Shown here piece after piece: positions 1,912 through 25,384 of a stretch of DNA of 32,000 bases (position 1 is the stretch's first letter; every line of letters begins with the position of its first letter). The translations under genes and the position numbers were made by a program. The DNA comes from Aquabacterium sp. CECT 9606 (GTDB taxonomy: Bacteria > Pseudomonadota > Gammaproteobacteria > Burkholderiales > Burkholderiaceae_C): the NCBI RefSeq assembly GCF_918741295.1, contig NZ_CAKKNB010000003.1:652668-684667 (forward strand). The letters are read 5' to 3'. The notes beneath the pieces are model-generated. The model saw only the letters and a program-made list of their open reading frames with translations, searched no databases and had not been told where the DNA came from.

Positions 1912-3606
1912 ATGCAAATCATTGATATCCCAGATCGCCCCTGGGTGAACTTTCATCAATCACAGCCTGACTTCAATCAAAAAATATTGGGATTGGCCGA
2001 CTTTATCGAGCAGCATGCGAGCGAACGCCAAAAAAAGGCGGCGGCCGAATACCTCGGCGCAACCATAAGCTACGCCGAACTGAATTTTTTGGCAAATAAG
2101 CTGGCCAATGCGCTACGAGACCGTGGCGTGCAGCGCTCGGAGACCATCGGACTGCACCTACCGAATACACCAGAGTATCTTATTGCCCTTGTCGCAGCCT
2201 CTAAGTTGGGCTGCCCAGTAACTGGTGTTTCACCTCTGTTGACCACACCAGAAATTGAACACCAACTTCAGGATGCGGGCGCCCGATTTCTGATTTCAAT
2301 GGAACAAGTTTATACCACGTCCGTGGCACCTGCTGATGGGCGGCTCTCTTTGTTGCGGGGCGTGTTTGTCACCAGTCCCATTGGCATTTTGCCAAAGTGG
2401 AAGCAGCACGCGGCTTATTTTTCTGGAAAGCTGCCGCGCCCAAGTTGGAAACCAATGATCCACACTGCGACCGAAGCGTTCATGCCGGCGGTGCAAAACG
2501 CTTCGGATGCCCACGCCTACGCTTCGGTTGCCGAGGATGAAACTGTATTTATCCAGTATACAGGCGGCACCACCGGAAAGCCCAAGGGGGCAGAGCTCAC
2601 CAAGCGGAATATGTTTGCCAACGGCTTGCAGGCCATGTCCTTCATCGGGGGTGACAGCGGGGATACTTTTGCGTCTGCGTTCCCGTTGTTCCATCAGGCT
2701 GGCCTGGCGATTTCATTGATGGCGTTGCGCGCAGGAGCGCGGCAGTTACTGATTCCGAATCCGCGTGACATTGATTTTTTCATTACTCAGATGAAAAAAT
2801 TCCCTCCAACCATGCTCGGCAACGTTCCTTCTCTCTACCAGATGCTGTTGGAGAAACCAGCATTTCGTGAGATTGATTTTTCGCGGCTACGTGTCGCCTT
2901 TTCAGGGGCTGCACCGTTTGCACCAGAAGGCATCCGTCAGCTTGAGGTCGTTGTCGGTGCCGGCAAACTTTGCGAAGTCTATGGCATGACTGAAACCAGC
3001 CCACTCATCACTATCAACCCACCTGGTCGGACCAAACCCGGCACCGTGGGGATACCACTACCAGGCAGCGATGTGAAAATCATGGACGCGGAAACCGGCA
3101 ACGTTGAGATGCCGGCTGGAGAAGTCGGCGAAATCACGACCTGCGGCCCCAATGTTATGAAGGGTTATCGAGGGCACAGCGAAGCCACTGCCCAGTCAGT
3201 GCGTGAAATCAACGGTAAGCGCTGGATGTACACTGGCGATATCGGGTTTTTTGATGCCGAAGGTTACTTGACCATTTGTGATCGAGCCAAGGATATGCTC
3301 ATTGTTGGTGGGTACAAGGTCTTTTCCGTCGAAGTTGAAAGCAAACTCAAGGAGTTGCCATGCATTGAGCTTTGTGCTTTGGTTGGCCTACCCGATCCCA
3401 ACCGCCCCGGCAACGATATCGTCAAGTTGTATGTGCAGCTTTCGGCCGATTCGAGTTCAGTCAACCGGGATGTTTTGATGGTGCAGATTCTTGACTTCTG
3501 TCGGCAGAACATGGCTCCTTACAAGGTGCCCAAGCACATCGAGTTCATGGCAACGCTGCCACTGACACCTATTGGCAAGCTGGATAAAAAGGCCTTGCGC
3601 AATTGA
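1912..3606 (+). CDS. Medium/long-chain acyl-CoA synthetase (AMP-dependent ligase, AlkK/FadD-like)
   Basis: 564 aa with RBS AGGAG 7 nt upstream. AMP-binding motifs YTGGTTGKPKGA, YGMTE, YTGDIG, GGYKV and the C-terminal PLTPIGKLDKKAL. Confidence 0.9.
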   Translation: MQIIDIPDRPWVNFHQSQPDFNQKILGLADFIEQHASERQKKAAAEYLGATISYAELNFLANKLANALRDRGVQRSETIGLHLPNTPEYLIALVAASKLGCPVTGVSPLLTTPEIEHQLQDAGARFLISMEQVYTTSVAPADGRLSLLRGVFVTSPIGILPKWKQHAAYFSGKLPRPSWKPMIHTATEAFMPAVQNASDAHAYASVAEDETVFIQYTGGTTGKPKGAELTKRNMFANGLQAMSFIGGDSGDTFASAFPLFHQAGLAISLMALRAGARQLLIPNPRDIDFFITQMKKFPPTMLGNVPSLYQMLLEKPAFREIDFSRLRVAFSGAAPFAPEGIRQLEVVVGAGKLCEVYGMTETSPLITINPPGRTKPGTVGIPLPGSDVKIMDAETGNVEMPAGEVGEITTCGPNVMKGYRGHSEATAQSVREINGKRWMYTGDIGFFDAEGYLTICDRAKDMLIVGGYKVFSVEVESKLKELPCIELCALVGLPDPNRPGNDIVKLYVQLSADSSSVNRDVLMVQILDFCRQNMAPYKVPKHIEFMATLPLTPIGKLDKKALRN

Positions 3607-4884: not shown

Positions 4885-4897
4885 GATAGACCTCAGC

Positions 4898-6127
4898 TCA
4901 GAAGACGAAGTCCACAGCTAAGCTGTAGACATTGACAGGATTGGCACCAAACCCGGGTTTGACATCGGTGAACAGGCCGACGCCACCGGTGTCAACCTTG
5001 ATTCGATCGAATTGCGCTTTTACAGCAAGATTTTTGCGAGCATCCCAGCGTAAACCGACGGCAGCGGTCTTTTGACCAACAGACGCCAGTAAAGTGTTCA
5101 CACCCCCAGCAAGTTGGTCAAGTCCGGGGTCGATACCTGTGGGGATGACTGACGACGAGATCGGGCTATCCTGAGAGAGTCGAGAGATCGTGACATAAGG
5201 CGTCCATACACCATACCGACGCCCAAGCGTCACGTACCAGCCCGTGGTGTCAGCAAAGAAGGCATCGACTCGGCGCTTGGTGTATTCCGCAGTGCCCACG
5301 AAGTCATTCCAGTCAATCGCGAGGCCTATTCCGGAGAAGGATGCGGCCTTGTCACTGGTGTCCAACTCTTCCGCCAAAGGGACAAGGGCCTCCAAACCCG
5401 GGCTTTGGCCTGCTTGACGCAGCCCGGCAAACAAGCCGTCCAAGCCTGAATTGCCACTCAAGTTGAGCTTGCCTTGCATATGTCCCAACCGCAGCGTCAC
5501 GGGCCCATATTCGGCTGAGGCGTTGAAACCTACCCCACTCTTTAGCTTAGCCTCACCCCCGAACATCTTGCCGGAGGTGCTACCCGTAAATACTTGAGCA
5601 TTCACGTTAGTATCGCCAATGCTGCCTTGATAGGAAACATCCACACCATCGAGATGGCTAAACGGAATCTGACCGTAAACATCAACGGGGGGGCGAAGCC
5701 AGGTGTTGGCATAACCGACGTCACGGAAATCGCTGACGAGGAAGTAAGGCGTGCCTGTCCGGCCCACTCGCGCGCTGAAGCCCTTTCCGAGTTTTATCTT
5801 GGCAAAACCCCACTCGAGTTCCGGGTTCCAGTTACCCTCACCGTTGCGTTTGGTGAGTATCTGAGCGGTTAGCGAAAACACGCTGTTCGGGGTGGCTGAG
5901 ACTTGCAAACCAAGCTTGGAGTCAACACCGTAATCGACTTTCTTTCTTGCCCCCCCCTCCTGAGGAAAGATGCCATAGGCTCCAAGATCTGTGTTGGTCT
6001 TGACGGCTCCCACGGTGCCAAAACCGGAGAAGCTGACCATGGATGGTTCAGTGGTTTCTTCGGCATGAACACCACTTGCATGGACGGCAAAGACCGCAAG
6101 TACTAGGGCACTGGACATAATTCGCAT
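4898..6127 (-). CDS. Outer-membrane beta-barrel porin
   Basis: 409 aa with signal peptide ...AVHASGVHA|EE, alternating beta-strand pattern, Gly/aromatic richness, and the C-terminal signature VYSLAVDFVF ending in Phe. Confidence 0.8.
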   Translation of the reverse strand: MRIMSSALVLAVFAVHASGVHAEETTEPSMVSFSGFGTVGAVKTNTDLGAYGIFPQEGGARKKVDYGVDSKLGLQVSATPNSVFSLTAQILTKRNGEGNWNPELEWGFAKIKLGKGFSARVGRTGTPYFLVSDFRDVGYANTWLRPPVDVYGQIPFSHLDGVDVSYQGSIGDTNVNAQVFTGSTSGKMFGGEAKLKSGVGFNASAEYGPVTLRLGHMQGKLNLSGNSGLDGLFAGLRQAGQSPGLEALVPLAEELDTSDKAASFSGIGLAIDWNDFVGTAEYTKRRVDAFFADTTGWYVTLGRRYGVWTPYVTISRLSQDSPISSSVIPTGIDPGLDQLAGGVNTLLASVGQKTAAVGLRWDARKNLAVKAQFDRIKVDTGGVGLFTDVKPGFGANPVNVYSLAVDFVF

Positions 6128-6303
6128 GAGTGATTCCTTCTAAAAGAGGTAGCGCATGGGATTAACGAACTACTTCGCCACGCAACGAAATTTACTATCG
6201 GCCAATCGACTGCTATCTTCAGAACAATCTGTGATAAAGACCCTTCAAAATTGTTTCACACTGCGACAAACTCACGCGATTGCTCGCTCCCACCGCTAGA
6301 GAC

Positions 6304-6798
6304 TCAAGGCTGGACACCATCCTCCACCATCACGCTGACTTTCTGGAGGGTGGATACGATAGGTCTGTGTGCCCCATCCGACCAATAAACCTTCAGCGTA
6401 TGAGGGCCTATATTGACAGGCAAGTCGAAGACGAAAAGGTACCGATGGTGCCCGAGCCGTATAAGCTGCTCATTCGATGGCATCAAAGACTTGCTGTCTA
6501 CTTCGACATGCAGGTGCGTCCTAACGGCCTGCGAACTCATCGTCAACCGCCGCATGTCGCCAGATGTTTCAAATATCATGGCGAGTTGTTTGCCGACCCT
6601 GGCACCATCCGAAGGCATGAGAATGCGTAGCGGCGGAACCACCATCCCTGCGCTGCCAGTCGCCTGACCTTGACCTAGACGTTCCTTGGTAGGGTGGCTG
6701 TGGTCATGCACATGCAGTTGGTCGGCAGCACCGCCATGCACAAGGGGAGGGGCCAGCATCAGGGCACCAAGCACGACTGCAAACTGGAAGGTCTTCAT
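6304..6798 (-). CDS. Secreted His-rich protein, last gene of the CuMMO operon (DUF4399-like by recollection)
   Basis: 164 aa with a signal peptide ending PPLVHG. The mature N-terminus is GAADQLHVHDHSHP. Later residues RILMPSDGARVG...THLHVEVD...IRLGHHRYLF...GPHTLKVYWSDGAH suggest an Ig-like beta domain with clustered His. It lies 36 nt downstream of copD on the same strand. Confidence 0.6.
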   Translation of the reverse strand: MKTFQFAVVLGALMLAPPLVHGGAADQLHVHDHSHPTKERLGQGQATGSAGMVVPPLRILMPSDGARVGKQLAMIFETSGDMRRLTMSSQAVRTHLHVEVDSKSLMPSNEQLIRLGHHRYLFVFDLPVNIGPHTLKVYWSDGAHRPIVSTLQKVSVMVEDGVQP

Positions 6799-6834
6799 AT
6801 GGATTGAGTCCTTGAACGGCGAGCTGAAATTGAG

Positions 6835-8808
6835 TCAATGAACATGATCGTCAGGGGAAGGTTTGAGCTGAGGTTCAGCATTAAGCTGAACCAGTTCCGG
6901 GAATAATCGATCCAAGTCATCCCAGCCAGACCGATCTTCTTCTGGGATCCAACGTGCCCGGACATAGCCGAAACGGTCAATCAAGAACTCCGCCCTTGCC
7001 CAGTCCATTCCCAGGCGGTCAGGAGCTCCGCGATTGGAAGCGGTGCGCGACAAAAGTTCGTACGCGTCCCAGATTTCCTTGCTTGAACTGCCAAGAACAG
7101 GGAACGGCAGATCTGATGGGGGTGTTACGCCCACCATTGGCACCACCAATAGAACGGCCGTGCGCAGGCTTTGCAAGCGCGGATAACCCGCCACGAGCCT
7201 GCGAATCCGCTCAGCCGACCGCTCATCTCTGTCAAGGAATACCAACAAGACATTGCTGCCCCCCCGGTAGTTCTTGAGTTCGCTGATTTCCGCACTGCCT
7301 TCAATGTAGAAGTTTGGCGCACCTAACCAAGCTTGACCGGAAACAACGCGTGAACTGAGTAACCGCCCTTCAAAGCCCTGAGAAAACGCGCGCAAAAAAT
7401 TGATCAAGTCCCATCGTTCCGAGGTCGACAGCACCTTGCCAAAGCCAGGCATCCCGCTCTCTTGAATACCGTGCGTCAGCCACCAATACACATCGCCTAC
7501 AGTGTGCAGCGCCGTGTGCGGTTGGGTGAGGTTTGCCGGAATTTTGGGAAGCGAAGAGGCTAACGGTCCATCACCGAGACCGCCGCCACCGTGGCAGTGG
7601 ATACAATGCGCCTGAAAAAGCGCTCGTCCCTCCGCAATAGATGCAGTGAGATAAGGAGATTCCGAGCGCCTGTAACTGTCCGGGTAGGCCTTGACGGCCA
7701 GTATCCATGCGAGTGCTACAGCGCTGGTCACGAAGACAAACAAACCTGATTGGCGCAAGGTACGATGGCGACCAAATGTCGTTGTCAACAGACCTACAGC
7801 AAGACAGGCTGCTGCGGTGAGTATCCAAGGGCGTTGCGTAGTCACGATCCATGCCGCATCCAGAGCCCAACGAAATGGCAACCACCAGAACGACGCATCA
7901 TGCAGCGCTGGCGTTGTCTGACCAAGCCACGCCGCGCACCCAAGCACCCCAATTGCAGCAACGAATTCCATCGCAACATGACGTGCAGCCAAACGCGAAG
8001 CCATGGCCAAATTACCGGCCACGCGCAACTGCGGGAGAAAGCCCCTGCGAACACCATTGGCCAGCAATAAAACAACCGCCAAGATGCAAAATTTGGCGAC
8101 CAGCAAGCCACCATATAGCGTACCAAGCAGGTCTCCGGCATTGTTAATGTAAGTGTCGGCTAGTAACGCACCACTCAATACGATGGTGCACATGGCACCT
8201 ATTGCCAGCCAAGAAAAGCGTGTCAGCGCATCCTCAAGCTGGGAGCAAGAAAGACCAGATTGTCCATTTGCAAATGCGCGCACGGTCAGCACCCACAACG
8301 GTAAGGCGCCCATCCAAATGGCCACAGCCAAGACGTGAGCAATATTCAGAACCAGTGTCCAAGACAGTGCTCCGGCTCCGGCTGCGTGCCCCCCCAGTGG
8401 ACCAAGAACCAAGTAAAGGGCAGCAAAGCCCGCACTGATTCGCAAAAAAGATCCATGTAATTGTTCGCGCCGTATTATGAGTATTGACGCCAGCAGCAGA
8501 CAGGAAATAATAGCCCGATAAACCCAAACACGACCAACATGTGTATCGCTCAAAAGCTGATACCAAGCGTTCGTGTTGCCAACAAAACCCCCTAAAATAG
8601 AGATTTGCGCTGTCAGCTTACCAAGATGCGCAAAGACCAATAGAAAGCCGGGCAGCACATACAACAAGACATCGACTCTCTTAAATCGAGAGTTAGGCAG
8701 GCACGTTGCGCTGGGCAAGCATATGTGACGGAAAACTGTCGTGCCGACGACAACTGAGCCAGCCGCCAAGGTCAACCATTGACACAAGGCGGAGATGAAG
8801 CTAATCAA
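6835..8808 (-). CDS. copD: CopD-family polytopic membrane protein fused to a class-I cytochrome c and a Cys-free thioredoxin-fold domain
   Basis: 657 aa. Residues ~1-390 are hydrophobic multi-helix CopD-like. The heme motif CIHCH sits at codons 402-406 (nt 7591-7605), with the distal SGMPGFG Met. Residues ~495-625 (NVLLVFLDRD...FLIDRFGYVRARW) look like a redoxin fold but contain no Cys at all. The start overlaps the copC stop by 8 nt. Confidence 0.85.
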   Translation of the reverse strand: MISFISALCQWLTLAAGSVVVGTTVFRHICLPSATCLPNSRFKRVDVLLYVLPGFLLVFAHLGKLTAQISILGGFVGNTNAWYQLLSDTHVGRVWVYRAIISCLLLASILIIRREQLHGSFLRISAGFAALYLVLGPLGGHAAGAGALSWTLVLNIAHVLAVAIWMGALPLWVLTVRAFANGQSGLSCSQLEDALTRFSWLAIGAMCTIVLSGALLADTYINNAGDLLGTLYGGLLVAKFCILAVVLLLANGVRRGFLPQLRVAGNLAMASRLAARHVAMEFVAAIGVLGCAAWLGQTTPALHDASFWWLPFRWALDAAWIVTTQRPWILTAAACLAVGLLTTTFGRHRTLRQSGLFVFVTSAVALAWILAVKAYPDSYRRSESPYLTASIAEGRALFQAHCIHCHGGGGLGDGPLASSLPKIPANLTQPHTALHTVGDVYWWLTHGIQESGMPGFGKVLSTSERWDLINFLRAFSQGFEGRLLSSRVVSGQAWLGAPNFYIEGSAEISELKNYRGGSNVLLVFLDRDERSAERIRRLVAGYPRLQSLRTAVLLVVPMVGVTPPSDLPFPVLGSSSKEIWDAYELLSRTASNRGAPDRLGMDWARAEFLIDRFGYVRARWIPEEDRSGWDDLDRLFPELVQLNAEPQLKPSPDDHVH

Positions 8809-9202
8809 CGGCCTTCTCGTGGGCGTTCAAACGAAATCCATACCCATATTCCACTACATGCCCATCCACAGAAAGGACACGATATTTAACCGTGTATGCA
8901 CCATTACTCAACAAAGGCAGCGGAACATAGATACAACTGGGCTTTTTGGGATCCTTTGCCGGGACTGACAATGGCACCAGCTTGCCCTTCGCGTCTTCAA
9001 TCGTGACCGTCGAGAAACTAGCCTCTACGTCTTCGTTAAAACACAAACGGATTTCTTTGGGCACCATCGTCAGCACCGCACGGCGCCCCGGTTCGGAGCT
9101 AATCATTCCCGCATGAGCCATGGCAATAGAGGGACAAAGTGCAACGCTCAGCACTGTCAGCCCCACTGACGAACGGACTATTTGCCGGATGAAAACAATC
9201 AT
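8801..9202 (-). CDS. copC: CopC periplasmic copper-binding protein
   Basis: 133 aa with signal peptide ...PSIAMA|HAGMISSEPG (mature N-terminal His). YTVKYRVLSVDGHVVEYGYGF is the CopC C-terminal signature. ATGA overlap with the upstream gene. Confidence 0.85.
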   Translation of the reverse strand: MIVFIRQIVRSSVGLTVLSVALCPSIAMAHAGMISSEPGRRAVLTMVPKEIRLCFNEDVEASFSTVTIEDAKGKLVPLSVPAKDPKKPSCIYVPLPLLSNGAYTVKYRVLSVDGHVVEYGYGFRLNAHEKAVD

Positions 9203-9804
9203 AAATTACCGCCCGAGGCTTGCTTGCCCGACGCTCGGTATTTACGCGAAGTCAGGTAATAGGCCAAGCCTGCCAATCCAAAGGAAAACAGAAAGGCGAT
9301 GACATAACGACCGTACTGAAGGACGCCGACTTTGAAGGGAAAAACAGAGTGATGTACAACACCGGTTTTCAGGTCTGTAGCCGTCAACATGCCGATATAC
9401 CACCCCGGCTGGACAAATTGGTGATCGAAGGTGACGGTTCCACGAGGATAGACTGATGGCGCCATTTTGACAACTGTTGCCGCATCAATTTCCTGCTGGG
9501 TACCCAAGTCCTCATAACGTCCAGCAGCCTCCCGATTTTTGACATCCCTCAGAACCCGAACCTCGACATTCATTTGACGTAATTCAGACGAAATATAGTC
9601 AATCACAATGATTGCGCGCCCGAGCTCTGGGATGTCCTCACAGAACTGCTGTGTGGCACGCACCTCTGGCTGATAGCCGGTAAAGTGCGCCGTCATGTTG
9701 GATACCTTCATGATGCACTTATCGTCCTCAATAGACACTCCGCCGTGCGCAAAGACCAGCGAAGGCGACAAGGTAACGAGCAACATGGCAAGTAGCTTTT
9801 TCAT
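9199..9804 (-). CDS. PmoD/AmoD-like periplasmic protein with C-terminal membrane anchor
   Basis: 201 aa with signal peptide ...PSLVFA|HGG, a ~150-aa soluble domain and a C-terminal TM helix YVIAFLFSFGLAGLAYYLT. Its position directly after xmoB matches pmoD/amoD in xmoCABD clusters. The family assignment rests on architecture and position only. Confidence 0.5.
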   Translation of the reverse strand: MKKLLAMLLVTLSPSLVFAHGGVSIEDDKCIMKVSNMTAHFTGYQPEVRATQQFCEDIPELGRAIIVIDYISSELRQMNVEVRVLRDVKNREAAGRYEDLGTQQEIDAATVVKMAPSVYPRGTVTFDHQFVQPGWYIGMLTATDLKTGVVHHSVFPFKVGVLQYGRYVIAFLFSFGLAGLAYYLTSRKYRASGKQASGGNL

Positions 9805-9814
9805 TACTCACCAT

Positions 9815-11044
9815 TCAACGAAATACTGGGATCATTGGGCCGCCAAATTCAGCCAGATAACGCTGACCACGGTCAGTGTAGAAGAACAGCATGCCGGCCA
9901 CCACCGCATCGGGTGATGCGATCATCGTGGTCATCCTTTCGGTTTCCCACATGGCATCATCAGCGTAGAGCACCACGCGCTTGGTTTCACCTGCTGCCAC
10001 TGGGCCACCTTCAACGCGTAGAGCATCAGGTGCGACCAGATCACTCTCGTCGAGAGGCTTGACCTTGCGCACAGCCGAGTTGATGAAACGCAGACTCCCA
10101 GCATCAAACTCGCCAATGGAGACGGGTTCATTGCCACGATTGGTGACTTCAATTTCCAGACGAAAACTTCGTCCAGGAATGCGATAACGGGCCTCGATCA
10201 GCTTGATCGACACTGGGTTTGGCTCCCGCTCAAGCGAAGGAACCTCCACCCGGCCAGTCTGCAGGGGCGTCGTGATCGGATATTGGTCTTGGGCGTGGAG
10301 ATAACTGCCTCCGATCAGACTCAAGGTCAGAAGCAGAAACACGGCGGCCATGACGCGATCTATTGGCGTAATCATCTTGTCCGCATCTGCACCCAGCTCC
10401 TGCGCACGCTTGAAGCGCGGCACGATGATCGGGCACTTCGTGAGCCAGTAAGCGAACCAAGCTAGACCAACGGCAAACCACAAAATAGACCAGAACTTGA
10501 CATTATCAAACCCATAGGTCTCCATATCAATGACCTTACCCAGCAGCGTGGTCGCGTTATTCTCGAAATCTGCTGCATTACCGGTAACCTCAACCCAGAT
10601 TCCGGGGCCGATTATAGGACCCGTGCCCTCAACGTTGATGACTGGGTGGACGTGATAGCGACCAGGTTTACGGGCTTTCAGCTTGACTTCGAAATCATAT
10701 AGCTCACCCTTGTTGAAGGACGTCGATCGAATCATCGGCGTGCCGTTGACACGAGAGTCGAGTCGAACAAATGAAGGGCCTGGAACACCAATATTAAGAA
10801 ATGCCGTCCCCTCAATTGAATTCACGTGGTGCGGCCAATATTCAGATGGCATGAACTGCCCCTTGACCATGACCAACTCATTCACCGCCAACTTCGTTGT
10901 CGACACCTGCACGTCCATCCAGTGCACGGTTCTCATGCGCAATTGGGGCATCTGTGCGCGTTCGCCATGCGCAAAAGCGGACGAAGAAATGAAGGCACCC
11001 ATCAGCGCAAACAGCGCAATGCACATTGCAATGATTCTTTTCAT
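9815..11044 (-). CDS. xmoB: Copper membrane monooxygenase subunit B (PmoB/AmoB homologue)
   Basis: 409 aa with signal peptide ...SSSAFA|HGERAQMPQLRMRTVHWMD, GRYHVHPVINVEG (the His plus HxH copper ligand set of PmoB), two central TM helices (FWSILWFAVGLAWFAYWL and VMAAVFLLLTLSLIGG) and a C-terminal cupredoxin-like half. RBS GAGGAGG. Confidence 0.93.
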   Translation of the reverse strand: MKRIIAMCIALFALMGAFISSSAFAHGERAQMPQLRMRTVHWMDVQVSTTKLAVNELVMVKGQFMPSEYWPHHVNSIEGTAFLNIGVPGPSFVRLDSRVNGTPMIRSTSFNKGELYDFEVKLKARKPGRYHVHPVINVEGTGPIIGPGIWVEVTGNAADFENNATTLLGKVIDMETYGFDNVKFWSILWFAVGLAWFAYWLTKCPIIVPRFKRAQELGADADKMITPIDRVMAAVFLLLTLSLIGGSYLHAQDQYPITTPLQTGRVEVPSLEREPNPVSIKLIEARYRIPGRSFRLEIEVTNRGNEPVSIGEFDAGSLRFINSAVRKVKPLDESDLVAPDALRVEGGPVAAGETKRVVLYADDAMWETERMTTMIASPDAVVAGMLFFYTDRGQRYLAEFGGPMIPVFR

Positions 11045-11053
11045 ATTACCTCC

Positions 11054-11818
11054 TCAAACAATTTTCCGGATCCAGATCGCCTTCGACCCCAAGTAACCAA
11101 TCCATATCCAGAACCACAAATTAAGGATATTTAGAAAGCCTGCAAAAACTGCCGTCAACGGCGTCACCGCCTCACCAAAGGTACGAAGCGTTGACTGCTC
11201 AATGATGCGCACATATTCAGGAATTGCCGTGCGGATGTATTCATAACCAATTAAATCAGCCACAGTGAGCATCGTGCCATGCAGATTCACTGGCACCATG
11301 AAAGGCGCGAGCAAAGCCCAATTGAGTGGATAAATCAGCACACCAAAAGCGAATCCACCAAATAGGCCCGTCCAAAAAAAACTACCCGTCAACAGTAACA
11401 AACAGTCCAGTATCAAGCCTAGCCCTATATAGGTTGAAGGCCAGACAAAATTCATCGGAAAATCCGCGAACAGATGAAAATTGAGGTAGCGACTGATCCA
11501 AGCGGCGAAGGTCAGGCACAAGATAGACAAGGTTCCACCAAGTGGCAGCCGCAGCTTTGCCCAAAATACATAGGAGAAGACACCTGGCAGAACAGTCAGT
11601 GCCAGAGGGGTTACCAGAGGCCACCAACGACGATCACGCCAATCGACCCAATAATCCCAATCACCAACCAGCAAGGCAAAGTGAAAGCTGAAGATACCCG
11701 CAAACAGCAAGACAACCAGCGGGATGACAAACAAATCCACCTGGATATATGCCCGTTTTTGCTCCTCGGGTGAAATCATACCCGATTGGGCCAATACCGT
11801 ATCCGAATCGCTTGTCAT
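11054..11818 (-). CDS. xmoA: Copper membrane monooxygenase subunit A (PmoA/AmoA homologue)
   Basis: 254 aa. GDWDYWVDWRDRRWWPLVTPL, NFVWPS, YPLNWALLAPFMVPVN and IPEYVRIIEQSTLRTFGEAVTP align with the conserved PmoA/AmoA blocks. RBS AAGGAA. Confidence 0.93.
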   Translation of the reverse strand: MTSDSDTVLAQSGMISPEEQKRAYIQVDLFVIPLVVLLFAGIFSFHFALLVGDWDYWVDWRDRRWWPLVTPLALTVLPGVFSYVFWAKLRLPLGGTLSILCLTFAAWISRYLNFHLFADFPMNFVWPSTYIGLGLILDCLLLLTGSFFWTGLFGGFAFGVLIYPLNWALLAPFMVPVNLHGTMLTVADLIGYEYIRTAIPEYVRIIEQSTLRTFGEAVTPLTAVFAGFLNILNLWFWIWIGYLGSKAIWIRKIV

Positions 11819-11985
11819 TTGTTATTTCCTTAAAACACCGAATGCTCATCAGCTGGTGATTTTGGCAGTTTGGAAAAAAACATCCCGAGCACCAGCCAAA
11901 TCATTTTATTTTGTAATGTAAACAGCAAAGCGCTTCACTCGGCTTCAGCACTTGCTCAAAGAAAACTAGTGTGCTCAGCTTGCAG

Positions 11986-12018
11986 AAAACGGCATGCGCA
12001 TCTCGCGCATGCCGTTTT
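11986..12018 (-). terminator. Perfect 14-bp stem-loop 33 nt downstream of the xmoC stop (attenuator, terminator or mRNA-stability hairpin)
   Basis: AAAACGGCATGCGC (11986-11999) pairs with GCGCATGCCGTTTT (12005-12018) around a 5-nt loop. On the transcribed strand the stem ends in UUUU. Confidence 0.5.
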
Positions 12019-12050
12019 TAGGTAGAAAGGCCAGAGCCGTCAAATCACAT

Positions 12051-12821
12051 TCAATTGACTGTTTGCAATTTCTTGGCAGTATCGTCATCGCCATGACCGA
12101 TAACTCTAGTCAACTCGACGATGCGGGTCAACATTTGCACCAGCAAACCTCCAGCCGCGAACGCGGACCACCCAAGCAACACGAATCCCCAGTGGATAGG
12201 CGCCGCGAACAACTCTTCAGCATAAAAAAAAGTGTGCCCCCATTCATTCAATCCGAGATTGGGCATGATCATGATCGGGCCAGCCACCAACAATCCAAAT
12301 GGCAGTGAAATTCGGTTGGCAAACTGCGGCAGTCTTGTGCGCGCATAGATGAAGGCCGAGACGCCAGCGATGATGAACATCGGAATGCCAAAGTAAAATA
12401 GCACTATGTGTGTCGGCGTGAAATCGGTATCGCGCACCGTCACCTGGTGCCAAGCGGCATCAGCTTCCGTGAACACCGAAGCCACGAGGTAAGCGATGAC
12501 AGAGAACAGCAAAATCTGGGCCAGCAGTACAAAATAGCGTCTCAACTCATCCACCGGCTTTAACTGGTCAAGTCGGCGGTCACGCGTCATCAAAAGCCAC
12601 ACACCAATGCTGCACCCCACAAGAGCAAGTACTGGTAGTTGGATATAGAGCAGCCTCATCCAATATTGCTGGAACTCAGGCGAGAAATAGTCTAGCCCGA
12701 CAGTGAATGCAGTTGCATGCTGGTAAATGCGATAACTGCCAAAAACAACAGCAACCACTAAAAGTCCCAAGAAGAATTTAGCCCAAGGGGCCTTCGGTGA
12801 TTTGTAGGCTGATGAATTCAT
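12051..12821 (-). CDS. xmoC: Copper membrane monooxygenase subunit C (PmoC/AmoC homologue)
   Basis: Start chosen at MNSSAYKSPKAPW (ATG 12821) behind AAGGAG, giving 256 aa. VRDTDFTPTHIV and PNLGLNEWGHTFFYAEELFAAPIHWG are the hallmark PmoC/AmoC metal-site blocks. Confidence 0.92.
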   Translation of the reverse strand: MNSSAYKSPKAPWAKFFLGLLVVAVVFGSYRIYQHATAFTVGLDYFSPEFQQYWMRLLYIQLPVLALVGCSIGVWLLMTRDRRLDQLKPVDELRRYFVLLAQILLFSVIAYLVASVFTEADAAWHQVTVRDTDFTPTHIVLFYFGIPMFIIAGVSAFIYARTRLPQFANRISLPFGLLVAGPIMIMPNLGLNEWGHTFFYAEELFAAPIHWGFVLLGWSAFAAGGLLVQMLTRIVELTRVIGHGDDDTAKKLQTVN

Positions 12822-13059
12822 TGCGCAACTCCTTTTGAACGAAAGTGCCCGCCTGCACCAGAGCAAACCATGGCGACAGATGCTTTCGTATGTTGCAGAA
12901 CCCACGTCATCGTTGCTATTAGTAAAATCACTTATGTACTTACCCAGCATTGACGACATCATCGTTACGCCCGAACCTTAAAAGTTACGCGTCACCGCTC
13001 TTTTTTTATTGGGTTCAAATCGTGTATCGCAGATGCATCTATCTTTCATGCTCAACAGC

Positions 13060-14116: not shown

Positions 14117-14127
14117 GGTGCGCACCA

Positions 14128-16435: not shown

Positions 16436-17878
16436 ATGAAGAACGATATAGCGCCCGAGCAACTGATCAATGTCAACGCCGAACACGCCGAAATCGAACG
16501 TGTGTTCGAACGTCAATTGGCTTCGGCGTTGCGACTGCGCTCTTCCACTGCGCATGATCGCTTGGTCAAGATAGAGCAACTCAAGCGTGCTGTGTTGCGA
16601 CGGCGCGAAGAAATCCAGCACGCTGGCGCGCTGGATTTTGGCAAACCTGCGGCAGAAGTCGATCTGACCGAAATTTTGCCGGTGGTAGCCGAGGCGAATG
16701 ACGCACGCCGCCATCTCCGCAAGTGGATGCGCCCTCACCGGGTATTGCCCACTTTGCTGATGTTTGGCACCAGCAGCCATGTGCGGTATGAGCCCAAGGG
16801 GCGCTGTCTGATCATCTCGCCCTGGAATTATCCAGTCAACCTGACTTTGGGGCCGCTAGTGTCAGCCATCGCGGCGGGCAACACAGCGATCATCAAGCCT
16901 TCGGAAATGACGCCGCACCTCTCCGCAGTGATCGTGGAGATTGTGCGGGAAGTGTTCTCTGAGGATGAGGTCGCCATCTTCGAGGGCGATGCCTCGGTGT
17001 CGCAGGTTCTGCTCGATCTCCCCTTCGACCACATTTTCTTCACCGGTTCTCCAGCGATCGGAAAGGTGGTGATGGCGGCTGCAGCCAGACATCTCACCAG
17101 CGTCACATTGGAACTTGGTGGCAAAAGCCCAACCGTGATCGACGAAACAGCTAACCTTGACGCAGCCGCATCGAACCTGATGTGGTCCAAGTTCGTCAAT
17201 AACGGACAGACCTGCATTGCGCCAGACCACGTGTACGTGCATGACTCGGTGAAAGACAAGTTCGTGCAGAGTTGCAAGAAGGCTCTAGAAAAAGCCTTTG
17301 GCGACGCGACGGGCCCGAACTCGGCCCATCGGGCATGCATCGTCAATCAGCGCCATACCGAGCGCATCGTGCGGTTGCTTGATGACGCCAAGGCGCGTGG
17401 CGCGCGCACCCTTGTTGGTGGTGCCTATAACCTGGCTGAACGCTACATTGCGCCAACCCTGCTAGACAACCTGCCTTCCGACGCTGCGATCATGGAGGAG
17501 GAGATATTCGGGCCAGTACTTCCGATCTTTGGCTATCGCGATCTCGACGCAGTGATCGCCGCCATCAATGCTGGCCCGAAACCATTGGCGCTCTACCTTT
17601 GGAGCCATGACAACGCCAGCATCAACAAGGTGTTGCGCGAAACATCATCCGGTGGCGTGTGCATCAACCACAGCGTCGTGCAGGCCCTGCATGGGCGGCT
17701 ACCTTTCGGCGGGGTCAACAACTCCGGCATTGGCAATTCACACGGCGCGTATGGCTTCAAGGCTTTCAGCCACGAGCGAGCTGTCGTGAGAGCACGGCTG
17801 ATGCTAGCTTCCGTTTTCTATCCACCTTACAGCAAACTGTCACGCAGGTTGATCTCAATGGCGTTTCACATAGTGTAG
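16436..17878 (+). CDS. NAD(P)-dependent aldehyde dehydrogenase, class-3/AlkH-like
   Basis: 480 aa. WNYP, ELGGKSP, NNGQTCIAPD (catalytic Cys), EEIFGPVLP and a hydrophobic C-terminal tail. RBS GGAGA. Confidence 0.92.
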   Translation: MKNDIAPEQLINVNAEHAEIERVFERQLASALRLRSSTAHDRLVKIEQLKRAVLRRREEIQHAGALDFGKPAAEVDLTEILPVVAEANDARRHLRKWMRPHRVLPTLLMFGTSSHVRYEPKGRCLIISPWNYPVNLTLGPLVSAIAAGNTAIIKPSEMTPHLSAVIVEIVREVFSEDEVAIFEGDASVSQVLLDLPFDHIFFTGSPAIGKVVMAAAARHLTSVTLELGGKSPTVIDETANLDAAASNLMWSKFVNNGQTCIAPDHVYVHDSVKDKFVQSCKKALEKAFGDATGPNSAHRACIVNQRHTERIVRLLDDAKARGARTLVGGAYNLAERYIAPTLLDNLPSDAAIMEEEIFGPVLPIFGYRDLDAVIAAINAGPKPLALYLWSHDNASINKVLRETSSGGVCINHSVVQALHGRLPFGGVNNSGIGNSHGAYGFKAFSHERAVVRARLMLASVFYPPYSKLSRRLISMAFHIV

Positions 17879-18007: not shown

Positions 18008-19645
18008 ATGGAATTTGACTACGTTATCGTAGGGGCCGGTTCGGCTGGTTGCGTGTTAGCAAATCGACTTAGTGCAGACCCCGGTGTGCGGGTCTGCCTG
18101 CTCGAAGCGGGCCCATCAGACAACTCGGCGCTGATTCGCACACCGATGGGCGTTTTGGGACTGCTGACCACGCGCTGGTACAACTGGTACTTTAATACTG
18201 AACCCGATGCGCAACTCAATGGTCGCCGCCTGTACTGGCCGCGCGGCAAGACGCTGGGCGGCAGTAGCTCCATCAACGCAATGGTGTACATGCGCGGTAA
18301 CCCCGCAGACTATGACGCATGGGCTGCACAGGGCAACACGGGCTGGAGTTACCAGGATCTGCTGCCACTGTTCAAGGAGCACGAGAACAATGAGCGCGGC
18401 GGCTCGGCCTTCCACGGCACAGGCGGGCCGCTGAACGTGGCAGAAGTGCGCTCGCGCAACCCGCTGTCTACGATGTTTATTGAAGCCGCTCACCAGTGCG
18501 GGATTCCCAAAAACACCGATTTCAACGGAGCGATTCAAGAAGGCGTGGGTTTTCATCAGGTCACACAGAAGAACGGCGAACGCTGGAGCAGTGCGCGAGC
18601 ATTCCTTCACCCTGTCATGCAACGCCCCAATCTCAAGGTATTCACAGATGCCCGCGCGACACGCCTGCTATTCGATGACAAGTGCATCAAGGGTATTGAG
18701 TACGTACGGGATGGTCGCACCGAACGCCTTGAGATCACGAAGGAAGTGATCCTGTCTGGTGGAGCCATTAACTCGCCACATTTGCTGCTGCTCTCAGGCG
18801 TGGGCCCCGAGGCCGAACTGAGCAAGCACGGTATTCCGCAGGTTCACGAGTTGCCTGGCGTTGGGAAAAATCTGCAGGATCATCTGGACATCACCGTCAT
18901 GATCCGGGATCGCAAAAAGCTCGGTATTGGCGTGGCGCTCTCCTTCCTGCCACGTGCGGTGTCCGGTGTTTGGCAATACCTGCGGCGGCGCGAAGGCCTT
19001 CTAGCCAGCAATGTGGCGGAGGTTGGCGGCTTCGCCAAACTGGCACCAGACTCGACGCTGCCCGAAATCCAGTTCCACTTCCTGCCGACGTATCTACGCA
19101 ACCATGGCCGGGATCTCGCCCCAGGCTACGGGGCCACCCTGCACGTATGTCAACTGCGCCCTAAAAGCCGCGGGTTCATCGGGCTCAAAAGTGCCGACCC
19201 AGTGGCTGACCCACTGATCCAGTCAAACTACCTGACTCACCCTGAAGACTGGAGCGAAATGATCGCTGGGCTCAAGTTAGCCAGGAAGATCTTGGCCGCG
19301 CCCGCATTTCGAGACATCAACGATGGCGAAGTGGCACCCGGGTCCGAAGCACAAAGCGATGAGTCATTACGCGCCTACATTCGCGACAAGGCCGAAACCA
19401 TTTATCACCCAGTTGGCACCTGCAAGATGGGTAACGACGCACTTGCCGTTGTCGATGCGCAACTGCGTGTTCATGGTTTGATCGGTGTTCGCGTTGCGGA
19501 TGCATCGATCATGCCCAGCTTGATTGGAGGCAACACGAACGCGCCGACCATGGTCATCGGCGAGAAGTGCGCTCGGGCGATTCTCTCTTCAGTTTCCGTA
19601 TTAGGCCTCGCGCAGGACCTCAACGCAACTGCACGGGGTATTTAG
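18008..19645 (+). CDS. GMC-family flavoprotein alcohol/choline dehydrogenase (AlkJ-like)
   Basis: 545 aa. FDYVIVGAGSAGCVLANRLS (FAD Rossmann), GGSSSINAMVYMRG, HPVGTCKMG and ADASIMPSLIGGNTNAP. RBS AGGAGA. Confidence 0.92.
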   Translation: MEFDYVIVGAGSAGCVLANRLSADPGVRVCLLEAGPSDNSALIRTPMGVLGLLTTRWYNWYFNTEPDAQLNGRRLYWPRGKTLGGSSSINAMVYMRGNPADYDAWAAQGNTGWSYQDLLPLFKEHENNERGGSAFHGTGGPLNVAEVRSRNPLSTMFIEAAHQCGIPKNTDFNGAIQEGVGFHQVTQKNGERWSSARAFLHPVMQRPNLKVFTDARATRLLFDDKCIKGIEYVRDGRTERLEITKEVILSGGAINSPHLLLLSGVGPEAELSKHGIPQVHELPGVGKNLQDHLDITVMIRDRKKLGIGVALSFLPRAVSGVWQYLRRREGLLASNVAEVGGFAKLAPDSTLPEIQFHFLPTYLRNHGRDLAPGYGATLHVCQLRPKSRGFIGLKSADPVADPLIQSNYLTHPEDWSEMIAGLKLARKILAAPAFRDINDGEVAPGSEAQSDESLRAYIRDKAETIYHPVGTCKMGNDALAVVDAQLRVHGLIGVRVADASIMPSLIGGNTNAPTMVIGEKCARAILSSVSVLGLAQDLNATARGI

Positions 19646-25354: not shown

Positions 25355-25384
25355 AGACCTGCGCGCCTGTTGGTCGTTGAGGCT

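What the first reader, a model, noticed from the sequence alone, without database searches (positions are those of the whole stretch)
6304..12821. Divergent copper membrane monooxygenase operon (xmoCAB, pmoD-like, copC, copD/cytochrome c, His-rich protein) outside any C1 or nitrifier context
Seven tightly packed minus-strand genes. Spacers are 9-10 nt for A-B and B-D, with ATGA and 8-nt overlaps for D-copC and copC-copD. Homology to PmoCAB/AmoCAB is clear from motifs: XmoB has the mature N-terminus HGERAQ...MRTVHWMD plus GRYHVHP; XmoA has WDYWVDWRDRRWW and PEYVRIIEQSTLRTFG; XmoC has RDTDFTPTH and LNEWGHTFF..APIHWG. All three are visibly diverged from the methanotroph and nitrifier sequences I can recall. 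Nothing in the 32 kb belongs to methane or ammonia metabolism (no hao/cycAB, no mxaF/xoxF). Established context, as I recall Rochman et al., ISME J 2020: xmoCABD clusters were found in non-nitrifying Rhodoferax and Polaromonas and linked to C2-C4 alkane use by SIP and transcripts. To my knowledge no such enzyme has been purified or had its substrate range or copper sites defined. The accessory set here goes beyond xmoCABD and looks like a self-contained, horizontally movable copper-enzyme module.
Basis: partly seen in the sequence, partly recalled or inferred. Interest (0 to 1): 0.8.

Follow-up and report, generated by a model that had tools for sequence, protein, structure and literature searches.

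The report
Alkane-type copper monooxygenase operon in Aquabacterium
This is an intact seven-gene operon for a membrane copper monooxygenase and its copper-handling helpers, of the type linked to short-chain alkane rather than methane or ammonia oxidation; it sits in a foreign-looking island of a cultured Aquabacterium strain and is a new member of an already described group.

Summary
Seven intact minus-strand genes occupy 6304-12821: xmoC, xmoA, xmoB, pmoD, copC, a copD-cytochrome c fusion, and a His-rich protein. The window comes from Aquabacterium sp. CECT 9606, a betaproteobacterium.

XmoA is only 40% identical to the AmoA and PmoA sequences of solved structures. It is 70-72% identical to the Rhodoferax and Polaromonas sequences, and 79-85% identical to Nevskiales sequences. 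It nests among the Nevskiales sequences with 100% bootstrap support. All CuB, CuC and CuD ligands are conserved.

The accessory set is not special to this window:
- The same seven genes recur in Polaromonas, in a Paraburkholderia MAG and on a Sphingobium plasmid.
- The trio of copC, the copD fusion and the His-rich gene also occurs without any xmo genes in Bradyrhizobium.
- Extended pmo/amo operons with pmoD-copCD were already published in 2018.

A GMC alcohol dehydrogenase and an aldehyde dehydrogenase are conserved neighbours. This supports an alkane to alcohol to aldehyde to acid route.

Low GC, the conflict between host and gene tree, and an IS element point to horizontal acquisition.

Verdict: a real operon, correctly interpreted, and a new member of a known kind. 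Its function is inferred, not shown. Interest is moderate.

The parts
12051..12821 (-). xmoC, CuMMO subunit C (256 aa)
   Evidence: Pfam AmoC scores E 7.6e-83. The CuC ligands D/H/H (EADAAWH...TPTH) and the CuD ligands N/H/H (LNEWGH...APIH) align to the PmoC and AmoC sequences of solved structures. An AAGGAG ribosome-binding site lies upstream of the ATG at 12821.
11986..12018 (-). 14-bp GC-rich hairpin followed by a U-tract, about 30 nt after the xmoC stop, in the 232-nt xmoC-xmoA spacer. It is terminator-like or an RNA-stabilising element.
   Evidence: The sequence was read. The hairpin appears in both the MFE and the centroid fold. Its function is inferred.
11054..11818 (-). xmoA, CuMMO subunit A (254 aa)
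   Evidence: Pfam AMO scores E 6.2e-76. Identity is 85% to a Stagnimonas MAG, 70-72% to Rhodoferax and Polaromonas, and 40% to N. briensis AmoA and to M. capsulatus Bath PmoA.
9815..11044 (-). xmoB, CuMMO subunit B (409 aa)
   Evidence: Pfam Monooxygenase_B scores E 6.6e-122. The CuB ligands are kept: the mature N-terminal His (HGERAQ) and YHVHP, aligned to PmoB His33, His137 and His139.
9199..9804 (-). pmoD/amoD-family protein (201 aa), with a signal peptide, a cupredoxin-like domain and a C-terminal transmembrane helix
   Evidence: phmmer to PmoD structure 6CPD scores E 3.5e-13. The motif is C30-x9-H40...C55, conserved across hydrocarbon-type operons. It is not the CuA-forming Cx7MxH class described in PMC6189053.
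8801..9202 (-). copC, periplasmic Cu(II)-binding protein (133 aa)
   Evidence: Pfam CopC scores E 6.3e-20, and profile position 1 falls on His30, directly after the predicted signal peptide. The sequence has a DGH motif and no Met-rich Cu(I) loop (read).
6835..8808 (-). Three-domain fusion (657 aa): CopD membrane domain, class I cytochrome c, and a Cys-less peroxiredoxin-like fold, ending in an invariant DDHVH tail
   Evidence: Pfam hits CopD, Cytochrome_CBB3 and Cytochrom_C, with a weak AhpC-TSA hit. The AF2 model has pLDDT 84.6. Foldseek matches cytochrome c552 (TM 0.73) and peroxiredoxins (TM about 0.6). Invariant residues are C402, C405, H406, M453, H141, H158, H655 and H657.
6304..6798 (-). 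His-rich periplasmic Ig-like beta-sandwich protein (164 aa), the fixed partner of this CopC/CopD-cytochrome c subtype
   Evidence: No Pfam hit passes threshold; DUF4399 is weak. The AF2 domain at residues 55-160 has pLDDT of about 80-95, and the N-terminal His-rich part is disordered. H95, H97 and W139 are invariant. The family has 146 cluster representatives. The gene is co-located with copCD-cytochrome c in Nevskiales, Polaromonas, Paraburkholderia, Sphingobium and Bradyrhizobium.
16436..17878 (+). Aldehyde dehydrogenase, a conserved neighbour and putative second downstream step
   Evidence: Pfam Aldedh scores E 3.4e-98. Homologues of 70-72% identity lie next to xmoC in Acidovorax, Rhodoferax and Polaromonas.
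18008..19645 (+). GMC flavoprotein oxidoreductase, a putative alcohol dehydrogenase and a conserved neighbour
   Evidence: Pfam hits GMC_oxred_N and GMC_oxred_C. Homologues of 64-75% identity lie next to xmo operons in seven clade loci and in the Paraburkholderia locus.
1912..3606 (+). AMP-forming acyl-CoA synthetase, a putative activation step. Its link to the operon is weaker.
   Evidence: Pfam AMP-binding scores E 2.2e-83. The best NCBIfam matches are long-chain-fatty-acid-CoA ligase models, all below cut-off. A 59% homologue sits next to the Stagnimonas operon.

Best explanation
The locus encodes a complete hydrocarbon-type copper membrane monooxygenase, (XmoCAB)3, which most likely hydroxylates short or medium n-alkanes to primary alcohols in the inner membrane, using O2 and membrane-derived electrons.

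Four co-transcribed helpers probably acquire copper for the enzyme, possibly reduce it, and deliver it:
- a membrane-anchored PmoD-family cupredoxin-like protein
- a Cu(II)-type CopC
- a fusion of CopD, cytochrome c and a peroxiredoxin-like fold
- a His-rich Ig-like periplasmic protein

The alcohol would then be oxidised by the neighbouring GMC oxidoreductase and aldehyde dehydrogenase, and activated by an acyl-CoA synthetase.

The module lies in a low-GC island that the Aquabacterium host acquired horizontally. Its closest sampled relatives are in Nevskiaceae.

Shown here: gene identities, conserved metal ligands, clade placement, conserved neighbourhood, compositional anomaly and purifying selection.

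Inferred: the substrate, the roles of the helper proteins and expression in this host.
For: Subunits and copper sites:
- Three CuMMO subunits score Pfam E 1e-76 to 1e-122.
- The CuB, CuC and CuD ligands are all conserved against solved pMMO and AMO structures.

Phylogeny:
- XmoA is 40% identical to the AmoA and PmoA sequences of solved structures.
- It is 70-75% identical to the Acidovorax, Rhodoferax and Polaromonas sequences and 79-85% to Nevskiales.
- In a concatenated XmoCAB neighbour-joining tree, the window plus Stagnimonas, the combined Nevskiales-type plus betaproteobacterial clade, and the betaproteobacterial subclade that excludes the window each have 100% bootstrap support.
- CuMMOs are described in the literature as C2-C4 alkane oxidisers in diverse bacteria, citing Rochman 2020 (PMC8941013).

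Neighbours and accessory genes:
- GMC and aldehyde dehydrogenase homologues (64-75% identity) sit next to xmo operons across the clade.
- The accessory genes are co-inherited with xmoCAB: the accessory-gene tree shows the same pairing.
- The PmoD assignment rests on a match to structure 6CPD, E 3.5e-13.
- The domains of the CopD fusion were confirmed by structure prediction and fold search.

Selection and origin:
- Non-synonymous differences (pN 0.09-0.44) are far below saturated synonymous differences (pS 0.70-0.87) for all six genes tested, including pmoD and the His-rich gene.
- Operon GC is 48-54% and GC3 54-62%. The genes at 27.6-32 kb have 64-66% GC and 78-80% GC3.
- The source organism was identified.
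Against: - No experiment exists for this strain, or for any Nevskiales-type member, in the searched literature.
- The substrate cannot be read from the sequence.
- The MerR-family regulator found upstream of xmoC in eight related loci is absent from the window, and no sigma-54 site lies upstream.
- The surroundings are decaying. There is a broken thiolase, an SDR remnant, and an outer-membrane channel gene split by an IS5 element. The island may not be fully functional.
- The PmoD lacks the Cx7MxH motif needed for a CuA site (PMC6189053), so an electron-transfer role for it is unsupported.
- The trees are distance-based, with few functional reference sequences.
- Rochman 2020 could not be read here.
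Confidence: 0.68

Rival explanations
1. The enzyme targets another small substrate rather than n-alkanes. Candidates are alkenes such as ethylene or propylene, acetone, or cyclic alkanes, as reported for other non-canonical CuMMOs.
For: CuMMOs are promiscuous. Relatives have been linked to ethylene (Haliea; PMC6215863), acetone (PMC8630023) and methylated cycloalkanes (bioRxiv 10.1101/2022.11.07.515388). Nothing in the sequence fixes the substrate.
Against: The conserved neighbours are a GMC alcohol oxidoreductase and an aldehyde dehydrogenase, which fit a primary-alcohol product. The window holds no epoxide-handling, Baeyer-Villiger or acetone-carboxylase genes. The adjacent alpha/beta hydrolase has a GxSxG serine nucleophile, not an epoxide-hydrolase Asp (read).
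Confidence: 0.14
2. The operon is passenger cargo of a decaying genomic island. It is silent or non-functional in Aquabacterium sp. CECT 9606.
For: Neighbouring genes are pseudogenes, and an IS5 element has split another gene. The cis MerR regulator seen in relatives is missing. The composition is foreign.
Against: All seven ORFs are intact and every metal ligand is conserved. The operon is 99.95-100% identical in four independent sequencing runs. Comparison with relatives shows strong purifying selection, although that reflects history before the transfer as well.
Confidence: 0.1
3. It is a true ammonia monooxygenase, used for heterotrophic or cometabolic ammonia oxidation, as the public annotation of XmoB suggests.
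For: XmoB exceeds the NCBIfam AmoB_BACT cut-off (522.8 bits against 336) and is named 'bacterial ammonia monooxygenase, subunit AmoB' in NCBI. CuMMOs often co-oxidise ammonia.
Against: AmoA_BACT (265.9 bits against a cut-off of 290) and AmoC_BACT (304.9 against 319) fall below their cut-offs. XmoA is 40% identical to N. briensis AmoA and is not placed near it in the tree. The 32 kb holds no hao or cycAB. The host genus is not a nitrifier (established knowledge).
Confidence: 0.05
4. It is a particulate methane monooxygenase that supports methanotrophy.
For: The best matches among solved structures for XmoB are gammaproteobacterial pMMOs, at 355 bits.
Against: All three TIGR CH4/NH3 monooxygenase equivalog models score below cut-off. 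XmoA is 40% identical to Bath PmoA. The window has no methanol dehydrogenase or C1-assimilation genes. As I recall from Rochman 2020, organisms of the sister clade did not assimilate methane; that paper could not be read here.
Confidence: 0.03

Closest known systems
xmoCABD operons of Rhodoferax and Polaromonas (Rochman et al., ISME J 2020; loci L020-L022 here)
   Same: The gene order is xmoC-A-B-pmoD. XmoA is 70-72% identical, and the two groups share a clade with 100% support. Adjacent GMC oxidoreductase and aldehyde dehydrogenase homologues are 70-75% identical. The Polaromonas loci also carry the His-rich gene, copC and the copD-cytochrome c fusion.
   Different: The window belongs to the sister, Nevskiales-type subclade. 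In Polaromonas the accessory order is pmoD, His-rich, copC, copD; here it is pmoD, copC, copD, His-rich. The alkane evidence (SIP and transcripts, recalled from memory) exists only for the betaproteobacterial lineages.
Nevskiales CuMMO operons (Solimonas aquatica, Panacagrimonas, Sinimarinibacterium, Stagnimonas), listed as 'unknown function' in Khadka et al. 2018 (PMC6215863)
   Same: These are the closest sequences: XmoA 79-85%, XmoB 65-80%. They have the same seven-gene set, and the subgroup nearest the window has the same upstream alpha/beta hydrolase and MaoC genes.
   Different: The host here is a betaproteobacterium, Aquabacterium. The operon has the lowest GC in the clade. Several Nevskiales loci have a divergent MerR regulator that is absent here.
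Extended pmo/amo operons of alpha-methanotrophs and beta-ammonia oxidisers (pmoCAB-pmoD-copC-copD(-PCuAC); amoCABED-copCD), Fisher et al. 2018 (PMC6189053)
   Same: The logic is the same: CuMMO structural genes are followed by a PmoD-family protein and CopC/CopD copper-homeostasis genes.
   Different: The structural subunits are only about 40% identical. The PmoD here is of the Cx9HxnC class, not the CuA-forming Cx7MxHxnC class. The CopD is fused to cytochrome c and a peroxiredoxin-like fold and is followed by a His-rich Ig-like protein. No PCuAC or amoE is present.
CopC / CopD-cytochrome c / His-rich protein cassette in Bradyrhizobium diazoefficiens (locus L085)
   Same: The three genes are in the same order, at 50%, 40% and 44% identity.
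   Different: It has no xmoCAB or pmoD and lies next to a PQQ dehydrogenase and a cytochrome c. This shows that the copper cassette is an autonomous unit recruited by CuMMO operons.
Sphingobium sp. SCG-1 plasmid CP026373.1 (locus L089)
   Same: It has the identical seven-gene order: xmoC-A-B, pmoD-like, copC, copD-cytochrome c, His-rich.
   Different: XmoCAB are only 40-47% identical, so this is a different CuMMO lineage. It is plasmid-borne and is followed by acyl-CoA dehydrogenase and CoA-transferase genes rather than GMC and aldehyde dehydrogenase.

Membership tests
Copper membrane monooxygenase (CuMMO, xmoCAB) | Three subunits homologous to AmoC/PmoC, AmoA/PmoA and AmoB/PmoB, encoded in the order C-A-B | tested here: met
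   Pfam PF04896, PF02461 and PF04744 all score far above their gathering thresholds. The gene order was read.
Copper membrane monooxygenase (CuMMO, xmoCAB) | Conserved copper ligands: CuB (N-terminal His plus HxH in subunit B), CuC (Asp/His/His) and CuD (Asn/His/His) in subunit C | tested here: met
   Alignments to solved pMMO and AMO chains show H26 (HGE) and H131/H133 (YHVHP) in XmoB. In XmoC they show EADAAWH...TPTH and LNEWGH...APIH.
Alkane-associated Xmo clade (Rochman 2020 type) | Phylogenetic grouping with the Rhodoferax and Polaromonas xmoCABD, apart from amo, pmo and pxm | tested here: met
   The combined clade has 100% bootstrap support on concatenated XmoCAB. The window lies in the sister Nevskiales-type subclade. 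The trees are neighbour-joining only.
Alkane-associated Xmo clade (Rochman 2020 type) | Growth, label incorporation or xmoA transcription on C2-C4 alkanes | not testable with these tools
   This needs culture work on CECT 9606.
Alkane-associated Xmo clade (Rochman 2020 type) | Host lacks the hao/cycAB and methanol-dehydrogenase pathways | tested here: inconclusive
   None is present in the 32 kb. The rest of the genome was not available.
Bacterial ammonia monooxygenase (AmoCAB) | All three subunits reach the NCBIfam equivalog cut-offs | tested here: not met
   AmoA_BACT scores 265.9 against a cut-off of 290, and AmoC_BACT 304.9 against 319. Only AmoB_BACT passes, at 522.8 against 336.
Bacterial ammonia monooxygenase (AmoCAB) | Nesting within the beta- or gamma-AOB AmoA clades | tested here: not met
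   Identity to N. briensis AmoA is 40%, and the two are distant in the tree. No ammonia oxidiser is among the 80 best genome loci.
Particulate methane monooxygenase (PmoCAB) | Reaches the TIGR03078/03079/03080 equivalog cut-offs and groups with PmoA | tested here: not met
   Scores are 266.1 against 280.6, 392.9 against 394.9 and 241.8 against 318.15. Identity to Bath PmoA is 40%.
PmoD/AmoD | Homology to the PmoD cupredoxin-like domain, with a signal peptide, a C-terminal transmembrane helix and two conserved Cys | tested here: met
   The match to 6CPD scores E 3.5e-13 and covers residues 30-160. C30 and C55 align to Cys41 and Cys65. The N-terminal signal sequence and the C-terminal hydrophobic helix were read from the sequence.
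PmoD/AmoD, CuA-forming subclass | Cx7MxHxnC ligand motif (Cys41, Met49, His51) | tested here: not met
   The window has C30-x9-H40 with Thr at the Met49 position. The whole clade shares Cx9H. Fisher 2018 found that Cx9HxnC proteins bind copper but form no CuA site (PMC6189053).
CopC | CopC fold with a Cu(II) site made of the mature N-terminal His plus DxH | tested here: met
   PF04234 scores 72.4 bits against a cut-off of 23.3, and profile position 1 falls on His30. The DGH motif was read from the sequence. The NCBIfam equivalog is below cut-off, at 68.7 against 95.
CopD | CopD membrane domain | tested here: met
   PF05425 scores 59 bits against a cut-off of 32.1. The NCBIfam copper_CopD equivalog is below cut-off, at 90.1 against 195, so this is a divergent, fused subtype. 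The AF2 model shows a multi-helix membrane domain at residues 1-370.
DUF4399 | Pfam PF14347 at the gathering threshold (tested on the His-rich protein) | tested here: not met
   The window protein scores E 0.048 and 14.5 bits against a cut-off of 28. Only 10 of 58 family members hit weakly. At most it is a remote relative.

The most novel reading that the evidence does not exclude
The trio of copC, the copD-cytochrome c-peroxiredoxin-like fusion and the His-rich Ig-like gene is an uncharacterised, autonomous system for reducing and importing periplasmic copper. Several CuMMO lineages have recruited it to metallate the enzyme. The His-rich protein (invariant H95, H97 and W139) would then be a new family of periplasmic copper chaperones, and the Cx9H PmoD would be the membrane-anchored hand-off point to XmoC/XmoB.
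Probability: 0.3. Interest if true: 0.55.

Novelty: new member of a known kind. Interest (0 to 1): 0.35.

Why it matters
CuMMOs that oxidise neither methane nor ammonia are widespread, but biochemically they are almost untouched. This locus places one, with its full copper-handling set and likely downstream dehydrogenases, in a cultured strain held in a culture collection (Aquabacterium sp. CECT 9606). Substrate range, inhibitor profile and the roles of PmoD, CopCD and the His-rich protein could therefore be tested directly.

It also documents transfer of the whole module between proteobacterial orders. It flags a systematic mis-annotation ('ammonia monooxygenase subunit AmoB') that could inflate counts of nitrifiers in metagenome surveys. 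Other cultured carriers exist (Polaromonas, Solimonas, Panacagrimonas), so the opportunity is not unique to this strain.

Tried and rejected
- Rochman 2020 (PMC7031514) is not held. Its content is cited from memory and through papers that cite it.
- No paper mentions CECT 9606. No functional study of Nevskiales-type CuMMOs was found.
- The first bootstrap script timed out. I replaced it with a faster distance implementation.
- Foldseek of the His-rich model gave only generic Ig-like and CopC-like folds, so no specific assignment was possible.
- The word-based homologue search found only 4 relatives of the His-rich protein. The exhaustive profile search was needed.
- A tblastn search of the plasmid collection with XmoB found no close relative; the best hit was 40%, on a Methylomagnum plasmid. 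The Sphingobium plasmid emerged only through the CopD homologue.
- No tRNA, Rfam family or sigma-54 site marks the island or the operon. The promoter and terminator scan found no more sites than shuffled sequence.
- dN/dS could not be computed properly because synonymous sites are saturated. Only pN far below pS is reported.
- I considered the adjacent alpha/beta hydrolase as an epoxide hydrolase, which would fit an alkene route. I rejected this on its GxSxG serine motif.

Full report
**1. Observation**

| Gene | Coordinates |
|---|---|
| xmoC | 12051-12821 |
| xmoA | 11054-11818 |
| xmoB | 9815-11044 |
| 201-aa ORF (pmoD-like) | 9199-9804 |
| copC | 8801-9202 |
| 657-aa copD/cytochrome c fusion | 6835-8808 |
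| 164-aa His-rich ORF | 6304-6798 |

The longest xmoC ORF runs to 12962. The ATG at 12821 is the likely start for three reasons. It is preceded by AAGGAG. It is the start used by gene callers on identical contigs. It also coincides with the start of homology.

The junctions are 9 nt (A-B), 10 nt (B-D), an ATGA overlap (D-copC), an 8-nt overlap (copC-copD) and 36 nt (copD-His). The xmoC-xmoA spacer is 232 nt. It holds a 14-bp hairpin plus U-tract about 30 nt after the xmoC stop.

Pfam E-values of 1e-76 to 1e-122 for the three structural genes exclude chance.

**2. Source organism**

Every protein tested is 100% identical to a RefSeq or GenBank protein of Aquabacterium sp. CECT 9606 (Betaproteobacteria, Burkholderiales, Sphaerotilaceae), on a 988-kb contig. 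In that record XmoA is annotated 'methane monooxygenase/ammonia monooxygenase subunit A' and XmoB 'bacterial ammonia monooxygenase, subunit AmoB'. PmoD and the His-rich protein are annotated 'hypothetical'.

The operon is 99.95-100% identical on contigs assembled from four separate sequencing runs.

**3. The enzyme**

Alignments to solved pMMO and AMO chains show that every copper ligand is kept:
- CuB: the mature N-terminal His of XmoB (HGERAQ) plus YHVHP.
- CuC: Asp/His/His in XmoC (EADAAWH...TPTH).
- CuD: Asn/His/His in XmoC (LNEWGH...APIH).

XmoA is 40% identical both to Nitrosospira briensis AmoA (9PXF) and to M. capsulatus Bath PmoA (PDB identities from PMC13058606). The NCBIfam equivalog cut-offs are missed by AmoA_BACT, AmoC_BACT and all three TIGR CH4/NH3 models. 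Only AmoB_BACT passes, which explains the misleading public name.

**4. Phylogenetic position**

A scan of one genome per species returned 80 loci, which fall into tiers by XmoA identity:

| Group | XmoA identity |
|---|---|
| Nevskiales (Stagnimonas, Panacagrimonas, Sinimarinibacterium, Oceanococcus) | 79-85% |
| Acidovorax, Rhodoferax and Polaromonas | 70-75% |
| Next tier (Macondimonas and marine gammaproteobacteria) | 55-58% |
| Porticoccaceae and Cycloclasticus | 46-53% |
| Pxm, USC-alpha and Methylocystis | 42-47% |

In bootstrapped neighbour-joining trees of concatenated XmoCAB (862 columns), four groupings each have 100% support:
- the window pairs with a Stagnimonas MAG;
- that pair sits inside a Nevskiaceae group;
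- the betaproteobacterial subclade is monophyletic and excludes the window;
- the two subclades together form one clade.

So a betaproteobacterial host carries a Nevskiales-type operon.

Synonymous sites are saturated against even the closest relative (pS 0.70-0.87), while pN is 0.09-0.44. The genes have therefore been under purifying selection, and the actual donor has not been sampled.

**5. Evidence for horizontal acquisition**

- The xmo genes have 48-54% GC (GC3 54-60%), the lowest in the clade. Relatives' operons track their hosts at 54-67%.
- Everything from position 1 to about 27 kb has GC3 of 55-69%, apart from the IS5 transposase at 78%. The genes at 27.6-32 kb have 64-66% GC and 78-80% GC3.
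- An IS5-family element (20734-21696) splits an outer-membrane channel gene.
- A thiolase next to xmoC is broken and 5'-truncated, and a 47-aa SDR remnant follows the MaoC genes.
- RadC and small ORFs lie at 24-27 kb.
- No tRNA or integrase is in the window. The left boundary lies outside it.

**6. Accessory genes**

*PmoD.* The 201-aa protein is a true PmoD/AmoD homologue (6CPD, E 3.5e-13). It has a signal peptide, a mature HGGVS N-terminus and a C-terminal transmembrane helix. Its motif is C30-x9-H40...C55, shared by all hydrocarbon-type operons examined. Fisher et al. showed that only Cx7MxHxnC PmoDs form the CuA site, and that Cx9HxnC proteins bind copper without forming it (PMC6189053).

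*CopC.* The mature N-terminal His and a DGH motif are present, and there is no Met-rich loop. This is the Cu(II)-only type.

*CopD fusion.* The 657-aa protein models well (pLDDT 84.6). It consists of:
- a multi-helix CopD membrane domain;
- a class I cytochrome c (CIHCH; Foldseek match to c552, TM 0.73);
- a peroxiredoxin-like fold without cysteines (TM about 0.6);
- an invariant C-terminal DDHVH.

*His-rich protein.* It has a disordered His-rich N-terminal stretch and a confident Ig-like beta-sandwich. H95, H97 and W139 are invariant, and H144 and M106 nearly so. The family is small: 146 cluster representatives at E <= 1e-3 among 1.84 billion. It is at best remotely related to DUF4399.

**7. 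The accessory set is not specific to this window**

- pmoD, copC, the copD-cytochrome c fusion and the His-rich gene follow xmoCAB in most Nevskiales loci. They also accompany xmoCAB, in a different arrangement, in both Polaromonas genomes, in L023 and in a Bordetella MAG.
- The same seven genes, followed by a GMC oxidoreductase, occur in a Paraburkholderia fungorum MAG (XmoA 79%).
- The same seven-gene order occurs on the Sphingobium sp. SCG-1 plasmid CP026373.1, with a much more distant XmoCAB (40-47% identity).
- The trio of copC, the copD fusion and the His-rich gene occurs alone, without xmo genes, next to a PQQ dehydrogenase in Bradyrhizobium diazoefficiens.
- Extended pmo/amo operons with pmoD, copC and copD were already described in 2018 (PMC6189053).

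The accessory-gene tree repeats the window-Stagnimonas pairing, so the module has travelled as a unit.

**8. Functional context**

To the right of the operon lie two MaoC-type hydratase genes, a serine alpha/beta hydrolase, an aldehyde dehydrogenase (16436-17878) and a GMC oxidoreductase (18008-19645). To the left lie two 4HBT thioesterases and an AMP-forming acyl-CoA synthetase.

GMC and aldehyde dehydrogenase homologues of 64-75% identity sit next to xmo operons in seven and nine of the clade loci respectively, including Rhodoferax, Polaromonas and Acidovorax. That conserved linkage is the best sequence-level argument for a primary alcohol as the product.

The downstream porin and the small PBP-like gene are not conserved with the operon. 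A MerR-family regulator upstream of xmoC in eight related loci is missing here.

**9. Mechanism**

Shown:
- a complete CuMMO with intact copper sites;
- four co-inherited periplasmic or membrane copper-related proteins;
- conserved alcohol and aldehyde dehydrogenase neighbours;
- no C1 or nitrification genes in the 32 kb.

Inferred:
- n-alkane hydroxylation, with the chain length unknown. C2-C4 is reported for the sister clade (Rochman 2020, recalled from memory and cited in PMC8941013 and PMC8630023).
- Copper capture by CopC and the His-rich protein, import through CopD, possibly with Cu(II) reduction by the fused cytochrome c.
- A copper hand-off or assembly role for PmoD, rather than CuA electron transfer.

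**10. Comparison and verdict**

The locus is a member of the CuMMO family. It belongs to the clade that contains the alkane-linked Rhodoferax and Polaromonas operons and the 'unknown function' Solimonas operon (PMC6215863, PMC8630023). It fails the membership tests for AMO and pMMO.

It is a new member of a known kind. The new points are modest:
- the host genus;
- the evidence for transfer between orders;
- the recognition that the trio of copC, the copD-cytochrome c-peroxiredoxin-like fusion and the His-rich gene is an autonomous cassette recruited by several CuMMO lineages.

Interest: 0.35.

Noticed in passing
window 9815-11044 (xmoB): The public annotation calls this protein 'bacterial ammonia monooxygenase, subunit AmoB'. 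The NCBIfam equivalog NF041640 scores it 522.8 bits against a cut-off of 336, although the A and C subunits miss their cut-offs and the host is not a nitrifier. The model probably over-calls AmoB across hydrocarbon-type CuMMOs.
   Followed up: partly
window 19796-20587, 20734-21696, 21732-22169: An IS5-family transposase (NF033581, 336.6 bits) sits inside a gene for a 'MetA-pathway of phenol degradation'-type outer-membrane channel. The two halves of that gene lie on either side of the element.
   Followed up: partly
window 12950-14135 and 15193-15336: An SCP2-type thiolase-like gene directly upstream of xmoC is split across frames and lacks its 5' end. A 47-aa C-terminal remnant of an SDR lies after the MaoC genes. 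Both are signs of decay around the operon.
   Followed up: partly
window 11986-12018 (minus strand): A perfect 14-bp hairpin (ACGGCAUGCGC...GCGCAUGCCGU) plus U-tract lies just after xmoC, inside a 232-nt spacer. It suggests partial termination or transcript stabilisation and a separate xmoA promoter. The consensus terminator scan did not flag it.
   Followed up: partly
loci L006, L007, L009, L012, L013, L015, L016, L087 (upstream of xmoC): A roughly 255-aa MerR-family regulator lies upstream of xmoC in eight related loci. It has no homologue anywhere in this window.
   Followed up: partly
locus L085 (Bradyrhizobium diazoefficiens, 5633-8489): The trio of copC, the copD-cytochrome c fusion and a His-rich homologue (44% identity) occurs without any xmo genes. 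It lies beside a PQQ-dependent dehydrogenase, a cytochrome c and a response regulator.
   Followed up: partly
locus L089 (Sphingobium sp. SCG-1 plasmid CP026373.1, 1843-8540): A distant CuMMO (XmoA 44% identical) has the same seven-gene order on a 237-kb plasmid. It is followed by acyl-CoA dehydrogenase and CoA-transferase genes and an IS66 transposase. The search of the plasmid collection did not find it.
   Followed up: partly
window about 27.5 kb; genes 27591-31970: Composition steps up sharply here, from GC3 of about 58-69% to about 78-80%. An SbcC-like AAA protein (886 aa, weak PADLOC 'mad3' hit at E 1.9e-09) and a metallophosphatase (426 aa) overlap there. This may be the island edge or a separate system.
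   Followed up: no
window 4459-6127 (minus strand): A porin-like protein (409 aa, weak Porin_4 hit) and a 141-aa PBP-like periplasmic protein follow the operon after a 176-nt gap. They are not conserved next to xmo operons in other genomes.
   Followed up: partly
loci L001-L004: Contigs from four different public sequencing runs carry this operon with 0-3 mismatches over 5.5-6.5 kb. In L001 the same IS5 insertion and flanks are present. Either the strain or the island is present in several datasets.
   Followed up: partly
window 22234-22881 and 24650-26574: A secreted chalcone-isomerase-like protein, a 234-aa ORF with no family hit, and a RadC-like JAB protein lie between the IS and the GC step. 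RadC often travels with integrative or conjugative elements.
   Followed up: no
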